Source: an uncultured Clostridia bacterium (GTDB lineage: Bacteria > Acidobacteriota > Blastocatellia > UBA7656). From it: a stretch of DNA of 64,000 bases. A model generated the notes under the pieces. It did no database searches. It worked only from the letters and a program-made list of their open reading frames with translations, and was not told the DNA's origin. Numbering within the stretch: the first letter of the stretch is position 1; each line of letters opens with the position of its first letter. The stretch lies in the NCBI GenBank assembly GCA_964615905.1, contig CAZTUB010000004.1:287527-351526 (forward strand). The letters are read 5' to 3'. The position numbers and the translations under genes are program-made. Shown here piece after piece: positions 9,263-57,055 of the stretch.

Positions 9263-10921
9263 TCACTTCTTAAATAACCGTTTTGCGAATGACCCCAGAT
9301 CAGACTTCCATAGGCTTCCGGCATCTTCCTTACCCTTCCTGTTCTTGGCCGTAGACCCAAGCTCGCGTTGAGCTGTTCGGTTGTCGGGGTCGAGTTGCAG
9401 CGCTTCGCGGAAGTAGTTTTCGGCCTTTTTGGCCAGCCCGACCTCTTTGTACAGGATTCCCAGCTTTGCCCTTATCTGCGCGTTGTAAGGGTCGAGCTCC
9501 GCAGATTTCGCCAGGTGCTGCTCGGCCTCGCGGCGCGTGCGCGGGTTGCGTATCAGTGCAAGTCCGAGGTGGAAATGGTACGGCGGCTTCGACGGGTCGA
9601 TCTTCACGGCCTCGCGCAGCAGGTGTACCGCCAGGTGGTATTCCTTTCTTTCAAATCGCGCGCGGCCTTGCTGGTAATAATGTTCGGCTGTGCGCGCAGG
9701 CTGTGACGGCTCCTGTTGCAAGGGCTCGCTTGCGGGCGGGGTGAGCGGCGTGGTCGGGAGTTGCCGCGAATTCCTTGAAGCGAGATCGCCGGACGGTTTT
9801 ATGTCGTCGACCGGCGGTATCGAAAGCGGTTGAGTCTTTGGCAGGCTCCCCGTCACCGGCCGCGATACTGTCGCGGGCTGCGCTCCGAGCGGTTGCGAAT
9901 CGCCCGGCTTCTTGAGCTTCGAGTCGTAAAGCGCGCGCTGTGTGTTGTCGCTCAGCGTTTCGTAGGCCAGCGTGATCTTCGCGAACAACGCTTCGAGCTT
10001 TCCTCTAAGCTCCTCATACTCGGGCTTGCGATAGCGGTCCGGGTGATACTTCTTCGCCAGCAGGTAGTAAGCCTGCTTTATATCTGCGGCGGTCGCGGAC
10101 CGCGTTGCGCCGAGGACTTCGTAGAGGTCTGCCGCCTGAAAGAAGTGGAGCTTTCGGGCAATGTCTTCGCGAAGATTCTGTATGGCTTCGTCTGGCTCCT
10201 GGTCGGCCTCGACGGGCTTGCCGCCCGGTTCGACGACTTTCAAAAAGCCCGCTGCGATAAGCGCGCAGACCGCTCGATGGGCCTGCTGGTCGTCGATGCC
10301 GCTCATCGGCCCGACTTCGTTTATCGTCGTCGGCGCTTCTATGCGCGAGAGCACATAGCTTTCGACGGGCATGAGCTTTCCCGAATCGAGTTGTATCCCG
10401 TTCGCCCTCGTGCGCGCGACCTGGCGGTCGGACGGGGCGATCTGGTGCGCGAGAAGGTCGAGGTTTGCGGCGCGGCGCGTGCCTTCGAGAATTATGTCGG
10501 CGGCCGTCAGGTCTAAAGTCACATCGTGCGATGCGCGTATCCGGTCATCAAAGACGTACTCGCCCTGATTCCATTCAAACAGCGACAGGATGATGTCGAG
10601 GACCTGCTCGCGAACGAGCCTGCGCATGTCTGAGTCTGACAGCACGCCCGTCTGCACGAGAGCCGTGCCGAGGCGGTTGGCCTTTCCCGCTTGCTGCTTC
10701 GCCTTTTCTATACGGTCGAAGTCGGCAAGCCCCTCTTTCACCAGCCTCGCTTCGAGCTGCTCGGCGGTAACGTTGCTGATGGCGTAAATGGGCGCGCCTG
10801 CGTCGAAAAAGACCGCCTTGATTACCTTGCCGCGCGACAGGCGCAGCAATCCGCTGAGCTTCTTTTCGGCGGCCTCACGGATGAGGTCCGCTATTAACCT
10901 TTCGCCGACTTGTCCTTGCAC
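9263..10921 (-). CDS. DUF4388 (PATAN-like) - J-domain - TPR repeat protein
   Basis: The N-terminus shows a DUF4388-like pattern (LSGLLRLSRGKVIKAVFFDAGAPIYAISN; FEWNQGEYVFDD). A central J domain is present (DLYEVLGATRSATAADIKQAYYLLAKKYHPD). The C-terminus contains TPR repeats. Confidence 0.7.
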   Translation of the reverse strand: MQGQVGERLIADLIREAAEKKLSGLLRLSRGKVIKAVFFDAGAPIYAISNVTAEQLEARLVKEGLADFDRIEKAKQQAGKANRLGTALVQTGVLSDSDMRRLVREQVLDIILSLFEWNQGEYVFDDRIRASHDVTLDLTAADIILEGTRRAANLDLLAHQIAPSDRQVARTRANGIQLDSGKLMPVESYVLSRIEAPTTINEVGPMSGIDDQQAHRAVCALIAAGFLKVVEPGGKPVEADQEPDEAIQNLREDIARKLHFFQAADLYEVLGATRSATAADIKQAYYLLAKKYHPDRYRKPEYEELRGKLEALFAKITLAYETLSDNTQRALYDSKLKKPGDSQPLGAQPATVSRPVTGSLPKTQPLSIPPVDDIKPSGDLASRNSRQLPTTPLTPPASEPLQQEPSQPARTAEHYYQQGRARFERKEYHLAVHLLREAVKIDPSKPPYHFHLGLALIRNPRTRREAEQHLAKSAELDPYNAQIRAKLGILYKEVGLAKKAENYFREALQLDPDNRTAQRELGSTAKNRKGKEDAGSLWKSDLGSFAKRLFKK

Positions 10922-11134
10922 TTGAGCTTCCAGAGGTGGCGGTGTGGACCACTCTCAAGCAGTAGTCTTACTTCTGCGAGGGCATTGCAATCGACATTGT
11001 AGATAGAAAGCCGTAAGCGCGCAAGAGTTACTATTAGCGCGGCGGGCGCGGAGCTTGAAACCTCGGTGATCGAATATTGACGCGCCCAAATTGAGCGGCT
11101 ACCATAATGACTTCGCCTGTTCAAAGGAAATTTT

Positions 11135-14100
11135 ATGGAAGAGCCTCGGCCTGCGTCTACGAACGCGCGAGAAATGTCAGACGAAGAAAAGACCGCCTCG
11201 AACCAGCAGGTATTTCAGGCGCTGGCCCGGATAGCTCAAGGCGACCTCAACTTTCGCATCAACGGCAGCGAAGACAACGCCACTCCCGAAGGGCGCGAGC
11301 TGCTGTTGAACCTCGACGGCCTCGCGCGCCGCCTTCGCTATATCGTGGGGCGGCTCCAGCGGGCGGCCGATTCGATAGACGCGGTCGTCGGAGAAGTGCT
11401 TCGCGGGACGCAGGCGCTGTCGGCAGGCGTGTTGGACGAAGCAAAGTCTGTCGAGGAGACTTCAAGCTCGATTGCCGAGATCAACGCTTCTATGCACTCG
11501 GTCGGCGGCAGCCTCCAAACCCTTTCCCACCTGACGCAATCGACCTCCACTTCGATCATGGAGATGGCCACCTCGATCAATCAGGTTTCGGAGAACGCGG
11601 ACGAGCTGGCACAGTTTGTCGAAGAGACGGCTTCGGCCATCGAACAGATGGCTGTGAGCGTTCGCAAGGTCGCCGAATCTACGGAAGCGCTCGCGGAATC
11701 CGCTGAAAAGACCGCTCGCGCTATGGAAGCCATAGACGATTCGACTCGCAGCATAGGCGAATCTGTCAATGAGACCACTGTGCTTGCCGAAGAGGTCGCG
11801 CGGTCCGCTGACGCGGGCAGCCAGCTTGTATCCGACACCGCCGCGAGCATGTCTAAGATCAAGGAGGCGATTGACGCGGCGACAGAGACTATCACGCGGC
11901 TCGGCCGCCGCTCGGACCAGATAGGCGAAGTCACACACGTTATCAACGAGATTGCCGACCGCACACACCTGCTCGCGCTCAACGCCGCCATACTCGCCGC
12001 GCAGGCAGGCACGCAGGGGCGCGGGTTTCGAATAGTCGCAGACGAGATCAAAGAACTGAGCGAGCGCACGGCCGCTTCGACCCGCGAGATCGAAGAGATG
12101 ATAAAAGCCGTCCGCGAAGACGTGACAGAGACAATCGAACGCGTGGCGGTCGGCGGCGAGCGCGCGGATGAAGGCGTTGACCTGGCTTCGCGCGCTTCGG
12201 TGCTGCTGACGGAGATACGCGACAAGACAATCGCTTCATCAGACCGCATACGGTTGATCGCAGACTCGACGGCCATCCAGGCGGCGGAAAGTCATACGGT
12301 GCTTGAAGCAGCGGACCTCGTGCGCCAGCAGGCGCGCGGCATCGAGCGCGCTACGAGCGAGCAGGCGCTCACGTCGCGCCACATCGGCGAGCGCGCGTTG
12401 CACATGAGCGAGCTGACAGAGCAGGTGCGCCGCGCAACGGGAGAGCAGGCGCAGGTCTCCAAGTACATCGCTCAAGCCATGGAAGAGCTGACCATGATAG
12501 TCGAGCAGATACGCTCCGCGTCCGACGAGCAGTCGGCAGGCGCGGACCAGGTGCTCAGGGCTATCGAGACCATCAAAGAGGTTGTCGGTCGAAATCAGAC
12601 CTCCATATCAGGGATCAACTCCGCGGTCGATCTGCTTGTGCGCGAGGCCGAGTTGTTGAATCGCGAGGTCGAAGCCTTCTCGATGCCCGCGTCGGAGCGC
12701 GGCGGCCATCTGAAATTTGCTCTGCGGACTTCGCAGATGGAGCTTGACCCGGCCGGCGTCAGCTCAATCTCACGAATCGAGCTGATCTCGAACATCTTTG
12801 AAGGGCTTGTGCAGTTTGGCGAGCGCGCAGACATTCGACCGGCGATAGCCGAGCGCTGGGAGATCTCTCCCGACGGGCGCGTCTACACCTTCTACCTGCG
12901 CGATGCCGCTCGGTTTCACAACGGGCGGCGCGTGCGCGCAGACGACGTGAAGTATTCCTTTGAGCGGCAGATGCGCCAGAACGAAGCGGCCGCCGGGTGG
13001 GTCTTCCGCCCGCTTGTCGGCGCAGAGCAGTTCATGACGGGCGAGACCGATAGCGTCGCCGGGATTCAGATTGCGGGAGAGCAGGTGATCAAGCTTGAGC
13101 TTATCCAGCCGGTCGCATTCTTCCTCGCGACGCTGTGCATGGATTACGCCTATATCGTGCCGCGCGAAGAGGTCGAGCGCGCGCCCGTCGATTTCGCCAT
13201 AAGGCCTGTCGGTTCGGGACCGTTTCGAGTGGTCGAGCCGGTCCTGGGGAAGGAAGTGCAGCTTGAGCGGTTTTCAAATTATTGGAACCCTGAGCTTCCT
13301 TACGTCGACAGGCTGACGGTCCAGTTCGGGCTGAGCGCGGACGAGATTTACGACCAGTTCACTCGCGGCGAGCTTACCTATGTGAACGATCTGCCGCTTA
13401 CTTACCTGCCGGAGTTGAAGCGAGAGCCAGGCGAGATACACGTGATCGAGGCCGTGCAGCTTCAGACGCGCATGCTCGTATTCGACTGCGAGCGCGCGCC
13501 GTTATCGGATAAGCGCGTGCGCCAGGCGATCTGTTACGCGATTAATCGGGAGAGGTTTGTGCGCGAAGTTTACGGCGGCATGGCCGAAAAAGCGGTCGGG
13601 CCGATCCCGCCGGGGCTGGTTGGGTACGACCCGGCTGAGCGAGGGTACGAGCACGACCCTGAGCGCGCGCGGGTGTTGCTTGAGGAATCGGGCTACGGCG
13701 GCGGGTTCGATACGGAAGTCTGGTGGGACGACTCTACAAACAACGCCGTCGAATGTTTGAAAGACGACCTGGCGGAGGTCGGCATCCGCGCCGAGTTTCG
13801 CTATGTCTCGCCAGCGGATATGCAGCGCGCGCTCAGGTTAAAGATGGTCCCGATTGCCGGGCGGGATTGGTTCGCAGACTACCCCGACCCCGATAACTTC
13901 ACGTACGTCCAGTTCAACTCTCGCAACAGGGATGTCTTCATCGGGACCTATTCGAATGAAGAGATGGACCGGTTGACGGACGAGGCGCGGTCTGTGATGA
14001 ACCGCGAGCAGCGCGCAGCGATTTATCGCGAGGTGACGAGGCTGTTGCTTGAAGACGCGCCGTGTGCTTTTCTTGCTCACCGCCGGAGCTTTGTCGCGCA

Positions 14101-14194
14101 CAGGGCGGACATAGAGGGCGTGACGCTTCACCTGCTCTCACCGTTCGTCACGCCTAAAGACCTGTGGTTTGCAAAGAGCGGTAATGAGTCGTGA
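11135..14194 (+). CDS. Soluble chemoreceptor-like protein: HAMP-like + MCP signalling domain fused to C-terminal family-5 solute-binding protein domain
   Basis: The highly conserved MCP signalling-domain core is present (THLLALNAAILAAQAGTQGRGFRIVADEIKELSERT). From about residue 530 there is a typical SBP_bac_5 start (ISNIFEGLVQFGERADIRPAIAERWEISPDGRVYTFYLRDAARFHNGRRVRADDVKYSFE). No signal peptide or TM helix is detectable. Confidence 0.75.
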   Translation: MEEPRPASTNAREMSDEEKTASNQQVFQALARIAQGDLNFRINGSEDNATPEGRELLLNLDGLARRLRYIVGRLQRAADSIDAVVGEVLRGTQALSAGVLDEAKSVEETSSSIAEINASMHSVGGSLQTLSHLTQSTSTSIMEMATSINQVSENADELAQFVEETASAIEQMAVSVRKVAESTEALAESAEKTARAMEAIDDSTRSIGESVNETTVLAEEVARSADAGSQLVSDTAASMSKIKEAIDAATETITRLGRRSDQIGEVTHVINEIADRTHLLALNAAILAAQAGTQGRGFRIVADEIKELSERTAASTREIEEMIKAVREDVTETIERVAVGGERADEGVDLASRASVLLTEIRDKTIASSDRIRLIADSTAIQAAESHTVLEAADLVRQQARGIERATSEQALTSRHIGERALHMSELTEQVRRATGEQAQVSKYIAQAMEELTMIVEQIRSASDEQSAGADQVLRAIETIKEVVGRNQTSISGINSAVDLLVREAELLNREVEAFSMPASERGGHLKFALRTSQMELDPAGVSSISRIELISNIFEGLVQFGERADIRPAIAERWEISPDGRVYTFYLRDAARFHNGRRVRADDVKYSFERQMRQNEAAAGWVFRPLVGAEQFMTGETDSVAGIQIAGEQVIKLELIQPVAFFLATLCMDYAYIVPREEVERAPVDFAIRPVGSGPFRVVEPVLGKEVQLERFSNYWNPELPYVDRLTVQFGLSADEIYDQFTRGELTYVNDLPLTYLPELKREPGEIHVIEAVQLQTRMLVFDCERAPLSDKRVRQAICYAINRERFVREVYGGMAEKAVGPIPPGLVGYDPAERGYEHDPERARVLLEESGYGGGFDTEVWWDDSTNNAVECLKDDLAEVGIRAEFRYVSPADMQRALRLKMVPIAGRDWFADYPDPDNFTYVQFNSRNRDVFIGTYSNEEMDRLTDEARSVMNREQRAAIYREVTRLLLEDAPCAFLAHRRSFVAHRADIEGVTLHLLSPFVTPKDLWFAKSGNES

Positions 14195-14306: not shown

Positions 14307-15320
14307 TCAAAGGCTTTTCAGCTTGTTTATGCGGTCACGCATGGCGCGGACGTATATGGCCACTTCGTCGTCCTTGAAGCCGGCAGAGCGAAACGCATCC
14401 GATAGCTGCTTGTCAGAGAGGCGGCCGAGCAGGTTCCCCATCCACCGCGCGTTTTCGACCGTCACGCCTTGAAGCGCGTCCGGGTTTTTGCCTTCGTAGT
14501 GGAATTTCACCATGCCGTTTTCTACGCCGTCGATAAAGACTTGATTGGCGAACCCGTTAGGGTTGCCCTTTGACCCGGCGGGAAGGTTGCCAAAGCCGGG
14601 TATCTTTCTGAGCCCGTTCCCGGTCGAGCCGAGCGTTCCGCCGAGGTCGGATACGTAGTAGACGCGCAGGCTCTGGTCGCCGCCGCTCTCTTTATTCGGG
14701 CGGGCAATCTTGTTGTTCTCGTCTTTCAGGTCCCAGTTGTTTATCAGCGCCATCACGGTCTGGAGGCCCTGATACTCGCGCGTGCCCTTAAAGTGGTTCG
14801 CATCCCACGACCACGGGCCGAGCGTCTTTAAACCGTCGTCGTCACGCTCGAACCGGACGTCCCATATATCGAACCCGCCACGGCCTTCGATGTGTGTACG
14901 GTCGACGAAAAATACGGGGTCTACGTAATAACCGGCCGCCCAGACTATCCGAGAGGCGGCGGTTTCCGGCCTGGCTTCCGGGCCGAATTTAACGGTCCAG
15001 CTACGGCCCTTGTCGTCTTTGACCACGATCTTCTCTGACGTGCCGCCGGGGTCGCGGGCGACGAATGTGTATTTGTCCGAAGGGCCTGGAACGTCTTTGC
15101 TCTCCTGACCTCCAACAAACAGATCAAGGCTTTCCATGTCGCGCTCTGTCCACAGTACGGGCCGACCTGCGTTAGGGTCGTCAGTCTCTTTTTTATCCTT
15201 CTTCTCTTTTTTGCCGTTTTCTTGAACCGGCAGGCTCGCCTGGACAGGCCCAATAGCGACAAGCCCAAAGAGTAAGAAGAGTGTTGTAATGCCACAAATT
15301 ACTTTTGTCTTCACTGACAT
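14307..15320 (-). CDS. Secreted hypothetical protein with protein-kinase-like catalytic-loop and DFG-like motifs
   Basis: Signal peptide present. Motifs NNWDLKDENNKI (compare HRDLKPEN) and YVSDLGG (compare DFG) are present. Confidence 0.45.
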   Translation of the reverse strand: MSVKTKVICGITTLFLLFGLVAIGPVQASLPVQENGKKEKKDKKETDDPNAGRPVLWTERDMESLDLFVGGQESKDVPGPSDKYTFVARDPGGTSEKIVVKDDKGRSWTVKFGPEARPETAASRIVWAAGYYVDPVFFVDRTHIEGRGGFDIWDVRFERDDDGLKTLGPWSWDANHFKGTREYQGLQTVMALINNWDLKDENNKIARPNKESGGDQSLRVYYVSDLGGTLGSTGNGLRKIPGFGNLPAGSKGNPNGFANQVFIDGVENGMVKFHYEGKNPDALQGVTVENARWMGNLLGRLSDKQLSDAFRSAGFKDDEVAIYVRAMRDRINKLKSL

Positions 15321-15520: not shown

Positions 15521-16444
15521 CTAAAAAGTGCGTTCGACGAAATCGCCAATGTTGACTTCGCCGTTCGTCCTTGTGACAAGCGCGACCGAAGAAGTCTTCT
15601 CAACTTTGAGAACGATAAGCTCGCCCAGCACCTTGCGCGGCAACTCAGGGCGGTTCTTGAGGACCTTCCTTTCGTGTTCGGCGGTTGCGCCTACGGACAA
15701 ATCGCCCCCGCGATAGTGGTCGCTCTGGAAGCCTTCGCTGCGCTGGACTATGACGTTGTCTTTGGGCGGATTTACAATCGATTCGCGGTTATTGATCTTG
15801 CGAAAGATAGTGAATGAATCACCCGGTTTGATCCCTTGCCTGGAGCCGAGGTCTATAAAGACGACCTGGTTGGCCGCTATGTATTCGCGGTAGCCGCGCG
15901 AAAGGAATATCTGGCCTGTAGCGCCGCCGGAACCTTCAGCGTAACGCGGCAGTGGCCCCGCCTCTTTCGCTACCGGCGCTGTGGGCGTCTCGTACGGCCT
16001 GAGCGCGTCGCCGAACGTCATCGTGTCACACGAGACGAGCACCTCAGCGGTCGCGGTCTGTCCCTGCACCTCAAGTACGCGAATCAAACCGAGCTCGCGG
16101 ACGAGCGTCCCCATCTTCTTCTTGTTGAAAGGGTGTACGACCTCGCCTAGCGGGCGAATGACCGTGTAGACTGCGCCGGAGTGTACACCGCTCTCGCGCC
16201 CCTTGTTCAGATAGACGACGTCGCCCTGAACATAATTCATCCGCGTGTACTCTCGCTCGCCGCCGACAATCTGCAAATCCATTGTGACGGGAACCTCCGA
16301 GATAAACCCCGTGCAGTAGATGTCTATGCCCCTGGCAGCCAGGTCGGGCTCGTCCTGGGGCCGAGGCTCGGCCAAAAAGACCGTAGGAACCGAAAACAGC
16401 GACACGGCCGTAACTAGCATGGCCAGACGTGCGAATCTTTTCAT
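15521..16444 (-). CDS. Secreted hypothetical protein
   Basis: Signal peptide MKRFARLAMLVTAVSLFSVPTVFLA. No recognised catalytic motif. Confidence 0.4.
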   Translation of the reverse strand: MKRFARLAMLVTAVSLFSVPTVFLAEPRPQDEPDLAARGIDIYCTGFISEVPVTMDLQIVGGEREYTRMNYVQGDVVYLNKGRESGVHSGAVYTVIRPLGEVVHPFNKKKMGTLVRELGLIRVLEVQGQTATAEVLVSCDTMTFGDALRPYETPTAPVAKEAGPLPRYAEGSGGATGQIFLSRGYREYIAANQVVFIDLGSRQGIKPGDSFTIFRKINNRESIVNPPKDNVIVQRSEGFQSDHYRGGDLSVGATAEHERKVLKNRPELPRKVLGELIVLKVEKTSSVALVTRTNGEVNIGDFVERTF

Positions 16445-16670
16445 TGCAACTCCTTCACGCTTGTTGGGGAACAGATGAGCCAATCTTAAAGGGGCAGGGC
16501 AGTCGCAGCTCTTACCGGGAAGCTAACAAAGTCCTCTGGCCAAGTCAATAATTAAATCCTACGGCCTCGGCCCTCACAGGGATTTGGCGAGGTTTCTCCG
16601 ACGCGTAACATAATCAGTCAGGTGCCCGAAATATCAAGCATCAGGAATGACAAATTTCTATACAATTTGC

Positions 16671-50095: not shown

Positions 50096-54388
<4,293 letters not shown>

Positions 54389-54490: not shown

Positions 54491-57055
54491 ATGGCTCGAC
54501 TGATAGAACTACCGGGTCGAACCCTGGACGGCAAGTACCACCTCGACAAACTGCTAGGGCAAGGCGGCATGGGCGCGGTCTTTCTCGCCACCCACCTCGG
54601 CACAAAGCGGCCCGTCGCGCTCAAGGTCATCGCTCCTCAGTTGATGGAGAACGAAGAGTTTATCGAGCGGTTCCGCCGCGAAGCAGAAGCCGCGGGCCGT
54701 CTTCGCCACCCGAACGTCGTCAACGTAACGGACTTTGGATTCACAAGCTCGGGGTCGGTGAACCTCGCATACCTCGTGATGGAGTATCTCGACGGCGGCT
54801 CGCTCGCGGATATGTTGAAAGAGCGCGGCCGCCTGCCTCTGGGTTTCGTCATAGACGTAGTTGAGCAGATTTGCCTCGCGGTTAACACCGCGCACGAGCA
54901 AGGGATCATCCACAGAGACCTGAAACCGGATAACATATGGCTCCAGCCGGACCAGCGCGGCGGGTACAACGTGAAGGTGCTCGACTTCGGGCTGGCAAAG
55001 CTTCACGACGCTTCGCCTTTAAGCAGCGGTGACGGCTCGGAATCTGACTCGGCTATCGCGGCAACACAGGTCGCAAACCAATCGGATACCGTCCGCGCCG
55101 CTGCGCACTATAATGGAGCGACCAGCCCTCAGCGGGCGGAAGAGACAGAGTTTGAAGTTGAAGCGGCGACACAGATTCAACGGCCCGTCGCGGTCCCGGA
55201 AGAGCAGACACAGCTTTTTGACGATCCATCCCCGAACGCGACCGACCTCGAAGCCGCTACGCAATTGCAACCGCCGACGCGTTTGGATAAAGAGCGAACA
55301 AACCGGCCCTCTCATAACTCAACGCCGATAGAGATAGATTTGAGCCTGGCCTCCGCTTCAAATCTCACGCGGGTCGGCGCGGTCATGGGCACGCCGCTTT
55401 ATATGTCGCCTGAGCAATGTCGCGGCGAGTTGCTCGACATGAAATCCGACATTTATAGCCTTGGCGTCATCGTCTACCAGATGCTTGCAGGAGCGCCGCC
55501 GTTTACCGGCGACATGAACGAGTTGATCGTCAAACACACGAACGAGCGACCGGCGCTGCTCATAGAAAAGCGAAATGACATACCTAAATCGGTATCGGAG
55601 CTGGTAATGTCCGCGCTGGCGAAAGACCCTGCGCGCCGCCCGGCAAACGGAGCCCTTTTTGCCAAGGCTCTACGCGCCGCCGCCGAAAGTGACCTCCATG
55701 TTGTGCAGGAGGGGCGAACTTACTACTACAACCACATACCCGGTATCATGTTGCTCTCTGCAATCATATATCTGCCGTTCGCAATCCCTTCCGTTATGTA
55801 CACCGCAAACTTCGCAAGGTCCGCAAACCGCGCGCTGGGGTTTGCAGACGCGCTTTTCTGGGTAGCGGCCTTCCTATACATACAGGTGGCCAACAGGTTG
55901 AACATAGCAGCTTCGTCGCTGGCCATTCGAGAGTTGCGCATAAGGCAATCCGACCCGCTGCCGATTGGCTCAATCCTGTTCACCCTGTTAAAGCGGTTTC
56001 CTTCGCTCGTACTTACGAGCCTGTTGGCCGATCTGGCGGCGATGGTTAACCTGTTGAGGCTGGTGCTGCCCGGCTTAAGATCGTTCGTCAATTACTCTCT
56101 GGCGGCTCCCGTCGTAGTGATTGAGAAAAAGAACCCGCTCGCGGCTCTTTCTCGTTCAAAAACTCTCGCCGAGCGGCTTCCGCATCTGGCAGGCTGGGCC
56201 ACAATACGGAGCATCTCTTTTATTATATGCTCGATACTGTTTCTGCCTGCGCTTGTGGCTGCGACAACAATTATCTTCGGAGGAACTACCAGCGGCGCCG
56301 GGTCATTCAGAGAAGTCTACCCGGTTATGCTAGGCTTCGGTTGGTTCCTTATAATCTCGTTCTACTCTTACAACGCGCTTCCGCTTGTGCTGATCTACTT
56401 CAAGGCGCGGCAGGCCCTCGGCGAGATGCTCGAAGAGGCATCGTCAACCGTTGCCGATCAAGAGAAGGTCTCAAAACGTCGCGGCCTCTTAAATCGAAAG
56501 ACTATCGTGTGGATCGTTTCACCGATCATCATGGCCAGTCTGATGATCTACACGGTTCGGTTCATCGAAGCGCCGCGACCGGACACTCTATCGACCGTCG
56601 CGTCGAGAGGCAGATACAAAGAGGTCAGGCGACTGCTTGCCGCCGGGGCAGACCCGAATGAAAAGGTGCGCAACGCGCGCACGCCGATAATGTCTGCTTC
56701 AGGTCAGGGGCAAGCGGACGTAGTAAAGGCGCTGATAGATGCAGGCGCTGACGTAAATGCCAGGGACGGTGATGGTGATACTGCTCTGCACGATGCGGCG
56801 TTGCAGGGGCGTTCGGAGCTTGCGAAGCTGCTTATCGGAGCCGGGGCGGATGTGAACGCAGCAAACAATAAAGGCGAGACGGCGCTGATTCTCGCTGCCA
56901 AAAGAGGGTTCGCGGATTATGTAAGAACCCTGCTCACTTCAGGAGCCGACGCGAACGCGAGAGATAACAACGGCAAGAGCGCGCTCGATTACGCGGAAGA
57001 GGAAGGGCGGCCCGCTGTAATCGAGATGCTCACAAGCGCGGGGGCAAGGAGATAA
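54491..57055 (+). CDS. Ser/Thr protein kinase with polytopic membrane region and C-terminal ankyrin repeats
   Basis: Kinase motifs GQGGMGAVF, VALK, HRDLKPDN, DFGLAK and SPEQ. There are about 6 hydrophobic helices, followed by 4-5 ankyrin repeats (GADVNARDGDGDTALHDAA...). Confidence 0.8.
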   Translation: MARLIELPGRTLDGKYHLDKLLGQGGMGAVFLATHLGTKRPVALKVIAPQLMENEEFIERFRREAEAAGRLRHPNVVNVTDFGFTSSGSVNLAYLVMEYLDGGSLADMLKERGRLPLGFVIDVVEQICLAVNTAHEQGIIHRDLKPDNIWLQPDQRGGYNVKVLDFGLAKLHDASPLSSGDGSESDSAIAATQVANQSDTVRAAAHYNGATSPQRAEETEFEVEAATQIQRPVAVPEEQTQLFDDPSPNATDLEAATQLQPPTRLDKERTNRPSHNSTPIEIDLSLASASNLTRVGAVMGTPLYMSPEQCRGELLDMKSDIYSLGVIVYQMLAGAPPFTGDMNELIVKHTNERPALLIEKRNDIPKSVSELVMSALAKDPARRPANGALFAKALRAAAESDLHVVQEGRTYYYNHIPGIMLLSAIIYLPFAIPSVMYTANFARSANRALGFADALFWVAAFLYIQVANRLNIAASSLAIRELRIRQSDPLPIGSILFTLLKRFPSLVLTSLLADLAAMVNLLRLVLPGLRSFVNYSLAAPVVVIEKKNPLAALSRSKTLAERLPHLAGWATIRSISFIICSILFLPALVAATTIIFGGTTSGAGSFREVYPVMLGFGWFLIISFYSYNALPLVLIYFKARQALGEMLEEASSTVADQEKVSKRRGLLNRKTIVWIVSPIIMASLMIYTVRFIEAPRPDTLSTVASRGRYKEVRRLLAAGADPNEKVRNARTPIMSASGQGQADVVKALIDAGADVNARDGDGDTALHDAALQGRSELAKLLIGAGADVNAANNKGETALILAAKRGFADYVRTLLTSGADANARDNNGKSALDYAEEEGRPAVIEMLTSAGARR

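What the first reader, a model, noticed from the sequence alone, without database searches (positions are those of the whole stretch)
11135..14194. Cytoplasmic chemoreceptor-like protein with a C-terminal family-5 solute-binding (oligopeptide/nickel-type) domain and no membrane segment
The HAMP-like GDLNFRI motif and the MCP signalling core (LALNAAILAAQAGTQGRGF...) are unmistakable. The second half of the protein is a full-length SBP_bac_5 domain that begins exactly where periplasmic SBPs begin after their signal peptide. Cluster-5 SBPs are normally periplasmic ligand binders, and chemoreceptor ligand-binding domains are normally N-terminal and extracytoplasmic. Here the order is inverted and the whole protein appears to be soluble and cytoplasmic. 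This looks like a new sensor architecture, possibly sensing intracellular peptides or metal-chelates and signalling to a Che-like pathway. The gene is divergently transcribed from a DUF4388 (PATAN-like)-J-domain-TPR protein. DUF4388 domains are associated with motility and chemosensory regulation in other phyla.
Basis: partly seen in the sequence, partly recalled or inferred. Interest (0 to 1): 0.65.

Follow-up and report, generated by a model that had tools for sequence, protein, structure and literature searches.

The report
Soluble chemoreceptor with C-terminal solute-binding domain
This gene really does encode one soluble protein that joins a very long chemoreceptor signalling rod to a complete peptide-type solute-binding domain at its C-terminus; the design is conserved across Acidobacteriota and Myxococcota and I found no published description of it, but its ligand and signalling partner remain unknown.

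Summary
Window 11135-14194 (+) is one uninterrupted 1019-aa ORF with MCPsignal (1.8e-39) followed by a full SBP_bac_5 domain (2.2e-78). It has no signal peptide and no TM segment.

The fusion is not an artefact. More than 100 independent full-length homologues carry both domains, and the junction is conserved.

- Blastocatellia and Pyrinomonadaceae, including cultured Pyrinomonas methylaliphatogenes K22, have the soluble form.
- Thermoanaerobaculia, Holophagae, Aminicenantes and Myxococcota (Archangium, Cystobacter) have a form anchored by an N-terminal TM hairpin.
- SBP5 is predicted cytoplasmic in both forms.

The signalling rod is 448 aa, or 64 heptads. Its tip is strongly conserved but non-canonical (NAAILAAQAG). 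A second, shorter MCP class with a canonical tip acquired SBP5 independently. TM-less Ser/Thr-kinase-AAA proteins also end in SBP5.

Best reading: a cytoplasmic chemoreceptor whose C-terminal SBP5 clamp is the ligand input.

Unresolved points:
- No che gene lies within 10 kb of any of about 50 loci.
- Whether the host has a Che pathway could not be tested.
- The DUF4388 neighbour is only lineage-specific synteny.

C-terminal sensors on soluble chemoreceptors (TlpD) and cytoplasmic SBP5 sensors (SgrR) both have precedents, so this is a new variant of a known kind.

The parts
11135..14194 (+). Whole gene: a 1019-aa soluble MCP-SBP5 fusion protein (stop codon included)
   Evidence: Single ORF. 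Both Pfam domains are far above their cut-offs. An identical protein (P0001) lies on a 402,909-bp NCBI contig, and its cluster is named Blastocatellia bacterium.
11077..11105 (+). Promoter-like site (TTGACG-17-TACCAT) about 30 nt upstream of the ATG. An AGGAA Shine-Dalgarno-like motif lies just before the start codon.
   Evidence: This is a consensus match only: 2 sites were found against 1.0 +/- 1.0 in shuffles, so it is not significant.
11135..11197 (+). Residues 1-21: variable, hydrophilic N-terminal tail, probably disordered
   Evidence: 0-43% identity among homologues whose other regions are 46-96% identical. pLDDT is below 50 for residues 1-19.
11198..11335 (+). Residues 22-67: degenerate HAMP-like segment containing the conserved [AG]GDL motif
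   Evidence: Residues 118-515 align without gaps to the TM chemoreceptor P0238 with a constant offset of 197. Extrapolating that offset places residues 19-67 opposite the Pfam HAMP of P0238 (216-264), although BLASTP did not align this N-terminal stretch directly. Pfam HAMP itself is sub-threshold (E 0.074). G36 and L38 are invariant.
11336..12679 (+). Residues 68-515: antiparallel coiled-coil signalling rod, 448 aa = 64 heptads
   Evidence: Residues 118-515 are 40% identical to P0238 residues 315-712 with no gaps. The P0238 rod, from the end of its HAMP to its C-terminus, is 448 aa. The AF2 model shows helices 51-140, 152-290, 297-431 and 445-513 with the turn at 291-296. The closest solved chains by sequence are Tsr and Tm1143.
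11942..12091 (+). Residues 270-319: hairpin tip, the usual CheW/CheA-binding region. The sequence is INEIADRTHLLALNAAILAAQAGTQGRGFRIVADEIKELSERTAASTREI.
   Evidence: This is the most conserved part of the protein, 76-97% identical across the family, with many invariant columns. Aligned to the Tsr tip, it shows E385->L, R388->Q and E391->T (Tsr residue numbers are from memory).
12326..12532 (+). Residues 398-466: conserved [EQ][EQ] pairs in the C-terminal arm (Q398Q399, E409Q410, E437Q438, E465Q466). These are candidate methylation sites.
   Evidence: The pairs are at least 92% conserved in 111 sequences. The last three are spaced 28 residues apart. There is one strict match to the methylation consensus, at 461-470. 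The consensus itself was recalled from memory, not taken from a source.
12680..12706 (+). Residues 516-524: junction SMPASERGG between the last rod helix (which ends at F515) and the first SBP strand
   Evidence: F515, P518 and G524 are invariant, and G523 is at least 90% conserved. The same PxxxxGG segment is the N-terminus of the 8upi chain. There is therefore essentially no free linker.
12707..14170 (+). Residues 525-1012: complete family-5 solute-binding (Venus-flytrap) domain
   Evidence: Pfam SBP_bac_5, 2.2e-78. By sequence, 8upi gives 1.2e-76, followed by H. pylori AibA/DppA and E. coli DppA. Foldseek aligns the domain over whole SBP5 chains with a target-normalised TM-score of about 0.8.
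13868..13900 (+). Residues 912-922: the WFADYPDPDNF motif. D915 aligns with DppA D408, which as I recall binds the alpha-ammonium group of the peptide ligand.
   Evidence: Alignment to 1dpe. W912, Y916, D918 and D920 are invariant, and D915 is at least 90% conserved. The same positions are conserved in the wider alignment that includes stand-alone SBPs.
9263..10921 (-). Divergent neighbour: a DUF4388/PatA_N + DnaJ + TPR protein of 552 aa. It may be associated with the fusion gene, but that is not established.
   Evidence: Pfam. The synteny is kept in many Blastocatellia and Pyrinomonadaceae, including P. methylaliphatogenes K22, where the spacer is 262 bp. It is lost in 13 close relatives and absent outside these families.

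Best explanation
The gene encodes a soluble, cytoplasmic chemoreceptor-type transducer from a Blastocatellia (Acidobacteriota) genome.

Its core is a 64-heptad antiparallel coiled-coil rod, which presumably forms a four-helix bundle as a dimer. The hairpin tip is strongly conserved.

A complete family-5 solute-binding (Venus-flytrap) domain is fused to the last helix of the rod with essentially no linker. Because the rod is a hairpin, this domain sits beside the degenerate N-terminal HAMP-like cap, which is where the sensor of an ordinary chemoreceptor sits.

Proposed mechanism (inferred, not shown):
1. A cytoplasmic small molecule binds in the SBP5 cleft. A peptide-like or other amine-bearing compound is most likely.
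2. The two lobes close.
3. The movement is passed directly into the C-terminal helix and down the rod.
4. This changes the activity of whatever binds the tip. The most probable partner is a CheW/CheA-type kinase complex, with the conserved Glu/Gln pairs serving as methylation sites for adaptation.

The soluble form derives from membrane-anchored relatives. Those carry an N-terminal TM hairpin with no periplasmic domain, and their SBP5 is also predicted to be cytoplasmic.

Shown: the architecture, the topology prediction, conservation of both halves and the junction, the family distribution, and independent recurrence of the fusion.
Inferred: SBP5 as the input, the nature of the ligand, and the Che-type output.
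For: Architecture and topology:
- One ORF with both Pfam domains far above cut-off, and no TM segment or signal peptide.

Conservation:
- More than 100 full-length 90%-identity clusters carry both domains.
- 53 of the best 150 50%-identity cluster representatives combine MCP and SBP5.
- Both halves are conserved. The rod is 57-96% identical, the tip 76-97%, and SBP5 46-82%. The junction residues are conserved, while the N-terminal tail varies freely.

The rod is a genuine chemoreceptor module:
- It is 40% identical, without gaps, to the transmembrane chemoreceptor P0238, which has the layout TM, periplasmic region, TM, HAMP, MCP. P0238 ends exactly where the SBP5 junction begins here.
- The tip aligns with that of Tsr.
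- [EQ][EQ] pairs are conserved, and one matches the strict methylation consensus.

The SBP5 half is a complete fold:
- Foldseek aligns it over whole SBP5 chains with a target-normalised TM-score of about 0.8. It fits closed DppA (1dpp, 0.81) better than open DppA (1dpe, 0.65).
- The Asp equivalent to DppA D408 is conserved.

Taxonomic spread and topology of relatives:
- Pfam confirms the architecture in P. methylaliphatogenes K22, Thermoanaerobaculia, Holophagae, Aminicenantes and two Myxococcota.
- In the distant members the only TM helices are an N-terminal hairpin, so SBP5 stays on the cytoplasmic side.

Independent recurrence:
- A second TM-less family of about 800-845 aa fuses SBP5 to a shorter MCP with the canonical [11 protein letters not shown] tip.
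- About 45 TM-less Pkinase-AAA_16 or AAA_16-only proteins also end in two or more SBP5 domains.
- SBP5 was therefore recruited repeatedly as a C-terminal intracellular module of signalling proteins.

Precedent:
- A C-terminal sensor on a soluble chemoreceptor is known from TlpD (PMC13001251).
Against: - No CheW, CheA or CheR gene was found in the 64-kb window or within 10 kb of the gene in about 50 loci. All 12 context look-ups, which covered the fusion family, its MCP-only relatives and the short fusion family, showed unrelated, mostly housekeeping neighbours.
- Whether Blastocatellia genomes encode any Che pathway could not be tested here. From memory, P. methylaliphatogenes is described as non-motile.
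- The tip departs from the canonical motif at positions that I recall as trimer contacts in Tsr. The whole 64H-like family has E385->I/L and R388->Q, and this clade also has E391->T and A397->R.
- The HAMP-like segment fails the Pfam threshold.
- The ligand is unknown. The segment holding DppA R355, which as I recall binds the peptide carboxylate, is deleted. All NCBIfam equivalog scores are far below their cut-offs.
- The full-length AF2 model has only moderate confidence (mean pLDDT 70.7) and is monomeric. It says nothing reliable about how SBP5 is coupled to the rod.
Confidence: 0.6

Rival explanations
1. The protein looks like a chemoreceptor but does not signal through CheA/CheW. The conserved, non-canonical tip binds some other partner, and the protein acts as a ligand-controlled scaffold or sequestering regulator. 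In Blastocatellia and Pyrinomonadaceae the partner could be the divergently encoded PatA_N(DUF4388)-DnaJ-TPR protein. The output could be type IV pilus activity or protein quality control.
For: - All family members examined, and their MCP-only relatives, are orphan genes away from che clusters.
- The tip has conserved substitutions at canonical positions.
- The PatA_N gene is immediately divergent in about 10 loci, including cultured P. methylaliphatogenes K22, and lies within 10 kb in about 18 of 31.
- PATAN domains bind the pilus motor proteins PilB1 and PilC in Synechocystis (PMC11181946).
- One MCP-only relative (P0261) sits next to a gene for an MshEN-T2SSE ATPase, the domain family that from my knowledge includes pilus assembly ATPases.
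- A chemoreceptor-like protein with a non-Che output is documented: E. coli Tls sequesters FlhDC (PMC12623472).
Against: - Orphan chemoreceptor genes are common in ordinary chemotactic bacteria, so a lack of che neighbours is weak evidence.
- The same tip class occurs in classical TM-HAMP-MCP receptors.
- The fusion also occurs in Myxococcota, which from general knowledge have many Che systems.
- PatA_N synteny is missing in 13 close relatives and in all other classes. It travels with a conserved housekeeping block (YebC-RuvC-DnaJ), so it may simply be inherited gene order.
- The conserved [EQ][EQ] pairs suggest methylation-based adaptation.
Confidence: 0.22
2. The SBP5 domain is not a small-molecule sensor. 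It is a degenerate clamp reused for protein-protein contact, oligomerisation or subcellular localisation of a soluble receptor. It would then be comparable to the C-terminal region that localises TlpD to the pole.
For: - The segment equivalent to the DppA R355 ligand-contact region is deleted.
- No NCBIfam equivalog cut-off is reached.
- SBP5 is less conserved than the rod: 46-82% against 57-96%.
Against: - The fold is complete, with all lobes present.
- The Asp equivalent to DppA D408, and the surrounding WxxDYPDPDNF motif, are invariant or nearly so.
- The domain is 29% identical in the Foldseek structural alignment to a ligand-bound periplasmic peptide-binding protein (8upi).
- SBP5 was recruited independently by a second MCP class and by kinase-AAA proteins, which fits a portable sensor module.
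Confidence: 0.12
3. The SBP5 half is extracytoplasmic after all. The protein would be an ordinary outside-sensing receptor whose membrane segment or export signal was missed.
For: - Family-5 SBPs are normally periplasmic proteins or lipoproteins. The stand-alone relatives at 34-37% identity have signal-peptide or lipobox-like N-termini.
- No dedicated TM or signal-peptide predictor could be run.
Against: - There is no hydrophobic stretch between the rod and SBP5 in any of about 50 family members.
- The only TM helices in the distant members form an N-terminal hairpin, which returns the chain to the cytoplasm. The Kyte-Doolittle scan flags two segments in most of them and only one in some.
- The MCP rod must be cytoplasmic to function, and SBP5 follows it with essentially no linker.
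- The N-terminus of the window protein is hydrophilic, and stops lie 9-10 codons upstream of the start.
Confidence: 0.03
4. The fusion is an assembly or sequencing artefact that joins two separate genes.
For: None found.
Against: - The frame is continuous in the window.
- More than 100 independent assemblies from JGI, ENA, NCBI and Logan have the same full-length architecture.
- These include complete chromosomes and a cultured type strain.
- The junction residues are conserved.
Confidence: 0.01

Closest known systems
Soluble chemoreceptors with a C-terminal sensor domain: H. pylori TlpD and Salmonella McpA, which carry a CZB domain (PMC13001251)
   Same: No TM segment. The MCP signalling domain is followed by the sensing domain at the C-terminus. 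The sensor therefore lies at the end of the hairpin rod that is distal to the tip.
   Different: The sensor there is a small zinc-binding helical CZB domain of about 65 aa on a short rod. Here it is a 55-kDa Venus-flytrap SBP5 domain on a 64-heptad rod. No CZB match was found. TlpD is shown to bind CheW and CheV; nothing is known about partners here.
Family-5 SBPs that act on chemoreceptors in trans in the periplasm: E. coli DppA with Tap, and H. pylori AibA with TlpB (PMC8050422)
   Same: The same SBP family feeds information into an MCP. DppA and AibA are among the closest solved relatives of this SBP5 domain.
   Different: Those are separate, secreted proteins that dock onto a periplasmic receptor domain and also serve ABC transporters. 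Here the SBP5 is covalently fused, is predicted to be cytoplasmic, and has no transporter genes nearby.
SgrR, a regulator with an N-terminal DNA-binding domain and a C-terminal SBP5-like domain (its cytoplasmic role and domain layout are from my own knowledge; NCBIfam PRK13626 matched this protein)
   Same: A family-5 SBP fold used inside the cell as the C-terminal module of a signalling protein.
   Different: The output is a DNA-binding domain, not an MCP rod. The match to the SgrR model is weak (6.1e-11, 41.7 bits against a cut-off of 476, and it covers only residues 537-717).
Long (64-heptad) transmembrane chemoreceptors with the NAAI[IL]AAQAGE tip, such as P0238, P0242, P0251, P0261, P0264 and P0269
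   Same: The rod has the same length and is 36-40% identical with no indels. The tip motif is the same. These proteins end exactly where the SBP5 junction starts here.
   Different: They have the classical layout of TM, periplasmic region of about 170 aa, TM, HAMP and rod, with no SBP5. One of them (P0269) is preceded by a separate ABC_sub_bind SBP gene, which would be a trans version of the same logic.
Tls, a chemoreceptor-like regulator of E. coli B2 strains (PMC12623472)
   Same: A protein of MCP type whose output need not be CheA. It is relevant because no che genes are linked to the present family.
   Different: Tls is Trg-like and sequesters FlhDC. There is no evidence of any such partner here, and the hosts are unrelated.

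Membership tests
Methyl-accepting chemotaxis protein (Pfam PF00015 MCPsignal) | MCPsignal domain scores above the Pfam gathering threshold | tested here: met
   135.8 bits against a cut-off of 34.6, E 1.8e-39. The closest solved chains are Tsr, Tm1143 and Aer.
Methyl-accepting chemotaxis protein (Pfam PF00015 MCPsignal) | Long antiparallel helical hairpin with arms of equal length, in a whole number of heptads | tested here: met
   Gapless alignment to P0238 gives a rod of 448 aa, or 64 heptads, at residues 68-515. The AF2 model shows two long helical arms with the turn at 291-296. This is a length count only; the rod was not classified with the published heptad-class HMMs.
Methyl-accepting chemotaxis protein (Pfam PF00015 MCPsignal) | Canonical hairpin-tip motif ([23 protein letters not shown]) | tested here: inconclusive
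   Most positions are kept (LALNAAI.AA.AG.QGRGF.IVA). However, the positions equivalent to Tsr E385, R388, E391 and A397 are L, Q, T and R, and these changes are conserved in the clade.
Methyl-accepting chemotaxis protein (Pfam PF00015 MCPsignal) | Methylation sites: Glu/Gln pairs in the consensus context | tested here: inconclusive
   Five conserved [EQ][EQ] pairs were found, with one strict consensus match at 461-470. The consensus was recalled from memory. Methylation itself is not testable here.
Methyl-accepting chemotaxis protein (Pfam PF00015 MCPsignal) | Cognate CheA/CheW (and CheR/CheB) in the same genome | not testable with these tools
   None is present in the 64-kb window or within 10 kb of about 50 homologous loci. 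Whole genomes could not be scanned.
HAMP domain (PF00672) | HAMP profile match above threshold | tested here: not met
   E 0.074, 13.8 bits against a cut-off of 25. Only profile positions 15-31 match. Extrapolating the gapless alignment offset places the segment opposite a genuine HAMP in P0238.
Family-5 (cluster C) solute-binding proteins of ABC transporters (PF00496) | SBP_bac_5 domain above threshold and a complete fold | tested here: met
   264.4 bits against a cut-off of 32.4. Foldseek gives a target-normalised TM-score of about 0.8 over whole chains of 8upi, 6ofq, 1dpp and OppA.
Family-5 (cluster C) solute-binding proteins of ABC transporters (PF00496) | Signal peptide or lipobox, with an extracytoplasmic location | tested here: not met
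   The domain is internal. It follows a cytoplasmic rod with no hydrophobic segment in between.
Family-5 (cluster C) solute-binding proteins of ABC transporters (PF00496) | Encoded together with ABC permease and ATPase genes | tested here: not met
   The window neighbours are DnaJ, pyrophosphatase, PatA_N-DnaJ-TPR, two proteins of unknown function, UDG and MFS. No Opp/Dpp-type permease appears in any examined context.
Dipeptide, oligopeptide, nickel or glutathione SBP equivalogs (NCBIfam DppA, OppA, NikA, GsiB) | Score above the curated equivalog cut-off, and the ligand-contact residues of DppA present | tested here: not met
   The best score is DppA at 180.9 bits against a cut-off of 1005. 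NikA scores 147.9 against 600. The equivalent of D408 (D915) is present, but the segment around R355 is deleted. The roles of these DppA residues are recalled from the DppA structure papers.
Soluble chemoreceptors with a C-terminal sensor (TlpD/McpA type) | No TM segment; the sensor is C-terminal to the MCP domain; the sensor is a CZB domain | tested here: inconclusive
   The first two features are met. The sensor is not a CZB domain: there is no Pfam hit. The topology is the same but the family is different.

The most novel reading that the evidence does not exclude
Family-5 solute-binding domains form a previously unrecognised class of intracellular ligand sensors. They have been recruited repeatedly to the C-terminus of signalling proteins: at least two chemoreceptor classes, plus large TM-less Ser/Thr-kinase-AAA proteins. 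In Blastocatellia, which are reportedly non-motile, the soluble 64-heptad version does not feed a flagellar Che pathway. Instead it couples a cytoplasmic metabolite, such as imported or proteolysis-derived peptides, to another output through its unusual tip. That output could be type IV pili or the neighbouring PatA_N-DnaJ-TPR protein.
Probability: 0.22. Interest if true: 0.72.

Novelty: new variant of a known kind. Interest (0 to 1): 0.5.

Why it matters
Solute-binding proteins are treated in the signalling literature as extracytoplasmic partners that act on receptors in trans (PMC8050422). Chemoreceptor sensor domains are catalogued mostly as N-terminal and periplasmic.

This is a conserved and widespread family. 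I counted 53 clusters at 50% identity that combine MCP and SBP5. They span Acidobacteriota, Myxococcota and other lineages, and include cultured strains. In this family a full SBP5 clamp is fused to the C-terminus of a chemoreceptor and is predicted to lie in the cytoplasm.

If the clamp is the input, three things follow:
- It adds a large Venus-flytrap module to the small set of known intracellular chemoreceptor sensors.
- It gives a simple system for studying how clamp closure is transmitted into a coiled-coil rod, because the protein is soluble and has no linker.
- It offers a handle on signalling in Acidobacteria, an abundant soil phylum whose behaviour is almost unstudied.

The parallel kinase-AAA-SBP5 proteins suggest that the principle extends beyond chemoreceptors.

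Tried and rejected
Explanations tested and rejected:
1. Frameshift or misassembly. Rejected: more than 100 independent full-length homologues exist and the junction is conserved.
2. A hidden TM segment or signal peptide. Rejected on a Kyte-Doolittle scan of the protein and about 150 relatives. The only peak in the window protein is the SBP core motif.
3. A che operon nearby.
They were run against every ORF of at least 100 aa in the window and 88 loci.
   - Only generic receiver and HATPase domains were hit.
   - Pfam scans of window ORFs of at least 150 aa across about 57 kb (128-57,055) found no Che component.
   - All 12 context look-ups were negative.
4. The DUF4388 neighbour as a conserved partner. 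Downgraded to lineage-specific synteny.
5. A true HAMP domain. Sub-threshold.
6. Assignment of a ligand class from NCBIfam equivalogs. All scores are far below their cut-offs.

Attempts that led nowhere:
8. Foldseek against afdb50 was unavailable.
No paper held both MCPsignal and SBP_bac_5. None dealt with chemotaxis genes in Blastocatellia.
10. Information on the 64H receptor class was limited to one genome paper that lists the class.
11. Whether the host genomes contain Che proteins could not be determined with the available tools.

Full report
**Observation**

Window 11135-14194 (+) is a single 1019-aa ORF. Two in-frame stops lie 9-10 codons upstream of the ATG, so no N-terminal extension has been missed. 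Pfam finds MCPsignal at residues 217-394 (E 1.8e-39) and SBP_bac_5 at 567-931 (E 2.2e-78). NCBIfam gives only sub-threshold matches to DppA, NikA, OppA, GsiB and various chemoreceptors.

A Kyte-Doolittle scan finds no TM-like segment. The highest window, 1.74 at residues 651-669, is the buried PVAFFLATL motif of the SBP fold, and the N-terminus is hydrophilic. The SBP half aligns from its fourth residue to residue 7 of a solved periplasmic SBP chain, 8upi.

**Not an artefact**

The word-indexed search returned more than 100 full-length clusters (53-86% identity, about 1000-1080 aa). All carry PF00015 and PF00496, and they come from JGI, ENA, NCBI and Logan assemblies. In an alignment of 111 sequences, F515, P518 and G524 at the junction are invariant and G523 is at least 90% conserved. 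Invariant columns are spread over both halves. By region, the rod is 57-96% identical, the tip 76-97% and SBP5 46-82%. The first 21 residues vary freely. The identical protein lies on a 402,909-bp NCBI contig, and its cluster is named Blastocatellia bacterium.

**Anatomy**

- Residues 118-515 align without a single gap, at 40% identity, to residues 315-712 of P0238. P0238 is a classical chemoreceptor with the layout TM, periplasmic region of about 170 aa, TM, HAMP (216-264) and rod, and it ends two residues after the aligned block.
- The P0238 rod is 448 aa, or 64 heptads. By homology the rod here is residues 68-515. Extrapolating the same offset places residues 22-67 opposite a HAMP domain, but they fail the Pfam HAMP threshold (E 0.074).
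- AlphaFold (111-sequence alignment, mean pLDDT 70.7) gives two long helical arms with the turn at 291-296, followed by an alpha/beta domain from residue 525.
- Foldseek aligns that domain over entire family-5 SBP chains, with a target-normalised TM-score of about 0.8. Hits include 8upi, H. pylori AibA/DppA 6ofq and OppA. It matches closed DppA (1dpp, 0.81) better than open DppA (1dpe, 0.65).
- The rod helix ends at F515, and the segment PASERGG corresponds to the N-terminus of the 8upi chain. The two modules are therefore joined with essentially no linker.
- Because the rod is a hairpin, the C-terminal SBP5 lies next to the N-terminal HAMP-like cap. That is the end where sensors normally sit. 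The order is inverted in sequence but not in space.

**Tip and adaptation sites**

Aligned to Tsr (Tsr residue numbers are from memory), the tip keeps most canonical residues. The equivalents of E385, R388, E391 and A397 are L, Q, T and R. The first two changes (E to I/L, R to Q) are shared by the whole fusion family and by its MCP-only transmembrane relatives, so they mark a receptor class rather than decay. Five [EQ][EQ] pairs are at least 90% conserved. E409Q410, E437Q438 and E465Q466 are spaced 28 residues apart, and residues 461-470 match the strict methylation consensus as I recall it.

**Ligand site**

In the alignment to E. coli DppA (1dpe), D915 corresponds to D408. As I recall from the DppA structures, D408 binds the alpha-ammonium group of the peptide. 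D915 lies in the near-invariant motif W912-x-x-D915-Y-P-D-P-D-N-F. The DppA segment 350-356, which contains R355 (the carboxylate contact, again from memory), is deleted. A peptide-like or amine-bearing ligand is plausible but unproven.

**Family and evolution**

The exhaustive search of 50%-identity representatives shows that the architecture continues down to about 24-35% identity. A local domain census of the best 150 representatives gave:
- 53 with MCP plus SBP5;
- 37 with Pkinase-AAA_16-SBP5 repeated two or three times;
- 8 with AAA_16-SBP5 repeats and no detected kinase domain;
- 40 with SBP5 alone or in tandem;
- 11 with MCP alone.

A scan of GTDB species genomes places full-length members in the following groups, confirmed by Pfam for six of them:
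- Blastocatellia and Pyrinomonadaceae, including cultured Pyrinomonas methylaliphatogenes K22 and a complete 5.5-Mb chromosome;
- Thermoanaerobaculia, Holophagae and Aminicenantes;
- Myxococcota, including Myxococcaceae GXIMD 01537 (complete genome), Cystobacter fuscus, Archangium and Hyalangium.

Members from Blastocatellia and Pyrinomonadaceae have no TM helix. The others have an N-terminal TM hairpin immediately before the GDL motif and no TM segment later, so SBP5 is predicted to be cytoplasmic throughout. The soluble form therefore looks derived.

A separate TM-less family of about 800-845 aa joins SBP5 to a shorter rod with the canonical [11 protein letters not shown] tip. This is an independent fusion. 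The kinase-AAA-SBP5 proteins also lack TM helices. SBP5 is thus a recurrent C-terminal intracellular module.

**Genomic context**

The gene looks monocistronic. The gene upstream is divergent (213-bp spacer) and the gene downstream is convergent.

The block YebC-RuvC-DnaJ-PatA_N gene-fusion gene-two unknown genes is kept down to about 66% identity. A PatA_N homologue is still adjacent in P. methylaliphatogenes K22. However, it is missing within 10 kb in 13 of about 31 Blastocatellia/Pyrinomonadaceae loci and in every other lineage. PATAN domains do bind pilus motor proteins in cyanobacteria (PMC11181946), but the association here is weak.

No CheW, CheA or CheR homologue occurs in the window or within 10 kb of any of about 50 loci. 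All 12 context look-ups showed unrelated, mostly housekeeping neighbours. No ABC permease genes accompany the gene.

**Mechanism**

The best-supported reading is a cytoplasmic chemoreceptor whose C-terminal SBP5 clamp is the ligand input. Closure of the clamp would be transmitted through the rigid junction into the C-terminal helix and down the 64-heptad rod to the conserved tip. There it would control a CheW/CheA-type complex, with Glu/Gln methylation providing adaptation.

The architecture, the topology prediction, the conservation and the recurrence are shown. The input role, the ligand and the output are inferred. I put this reading at about 0.6.

The main rival, at about 0.2, is a non-Che output through the unusual tip, as with E. 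coli Tls (PMC12623472). The partner might be the PatA_N-DnaJ-TPR neighbour or type IV pili. Less likely are a non-sensing, structural role for SBP5 (about 0.12), an extracytoplasmic SBP5 (about 0.03) and an artefact (below 0.01).

**Comparison with what is known**

- Soluble chemoreceptors with C-terminal sensors exist (TlpD and McpA with CZB; PMC13001251).
- Family-5 SBPs signal to chemoreceptors in trans in the periplasm (DppA with Tap, AibA with TlpB; PMC8050422).
- SgrR, from my own knowledge a cytoplasmic regulator with an SBP5-like C-terminal domain, gave a weak NCBIfam match.

None of these combines an MCP with a fused cytoplasmic SBP5. No paper in the searchable library mentions both domains together. 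Source databases merely annotate these proteins as 'ABC transporter substrate-binding protein' or give both names. I therefore class this as a new variant of a known kind.

**Limits**

- No dedicated TM or signal-peptide predictor was available.
- The structure model is monomeric and of moderate confidence.
- The heptad class rests on a length count, not on class HMMs.
- Most importantly, whether the host genomes contain a Che pathway could not be tested.

Noticed in passing
Proteins P0153, P0158, P0160 and others; not in the window: About 37 clusters at 50% identity are TM-less proteins of about 1800-2200 aa with the layout Pkinase - AAA_16 - two or three SBP_bac_5 domains. Eight more have AAA_16 and SBP5 repeats without a detected kinase domain. 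These look like large cytoplasmic Ser/Thr kinase / STAND-like ATPases that end in tandem solute-binding domains. I found no description of them.
   Followed up: partly
Proteins P0155, P0163, P0176, P0192, P0210, P0213, P0241, P0265; locus L092 7612-10101: A second, independent soluble MCP-SBP5 family of about 800-845 aa. It has a shorter rod and the canonical [11 protein letters not shown] tip. The contig carrying P0155 looks Firmicute-like (AgrB, V-type ATPase, and a ComFB gene immediately downstream) and has no che genes.
   Followed up: partly
Locus L090 6030-9255: An MCP-only relative with the same rod class (P0269) is preceded, 14 bp upstream, by a separate ABC_sub_bind (PF04392) solute-binding protein gene. 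This may be a two-gene, in-trans counterpart of the fusion.
   Followed up: no
Locus L089 8121-12235: Another MCP-only relative (P0261) is divergent from a gene for an MshEN + T2SSE ATPase. As I recall, MshEN binds c-di-GMP and this ATPase family includes type IV pilus assembly ATPases. This hints that the rod class may be linked to pili rather than flagella.
   Followed up: no
Window residues 131-158 and 425-452 of the protein (about nt 11525-11608 and 12407-12490): The AF2 model has two low-confidence breaks in the helical arms. They are roughly equidistant (about 145 residues) from the tip, which suggests a paired hinge or discontinuity in the rod.
   Followed up: no
Window 14307-15320 (-) and 15521-16483 (-): Two genes immediately downstream travel with the fusion gene throughout the Blastocatellia clade. 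One encodes a 337-aa protein with a signal-peptide-like N-terminus and no Pfam match. The other encodes a 320-aa protein with a weak FlgT_C match.
   Followed up: partly
Window 50096-54388 (+) and 54491-57055 (+): A 1430-aa hybrid sensor kinase (GAF, receiver, PAS domains, HisKA, HATPase) whose receiver domain resembles CheY closely (E 3.5e-25). It is followed by an 854-aa Ser/Thr kinase with ankyrin repeats. These are signalling genes, but they are not Che components.
   Followed up: partly
Loci L016, L026, L036: MAGs titled 'uncultured Clostridia bacterium' carry the fusion gene (52% identity in L026, 77-80% in L016 and L036). L016 and L036 also have the Blastocatellia gene order. The taxonomic labels of these records are probably wrong.
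   Followed up: no
Locus L054 9590-12337 (Cystobacter fuscus NCWS): The ORF stops inside the SBP5 domain, at Pfam profile position 241 of 368. This could be a frameshift in the assembly or a pseudogene.
   Followed up: no
Locus L008 13284-18668 (Holophagae-type homologue P0150); locus L001 15872-18172: A peptidase M3/M2 gene lies immediately downstream of one distant homologue, with a PTR2 peptide transporter about 3.4 kb away. An amino-acid permease lies near another homologue. These fit a peptide-related ligand only anecdotally, and the pattern is not consistent across loci.
   Followed up: no
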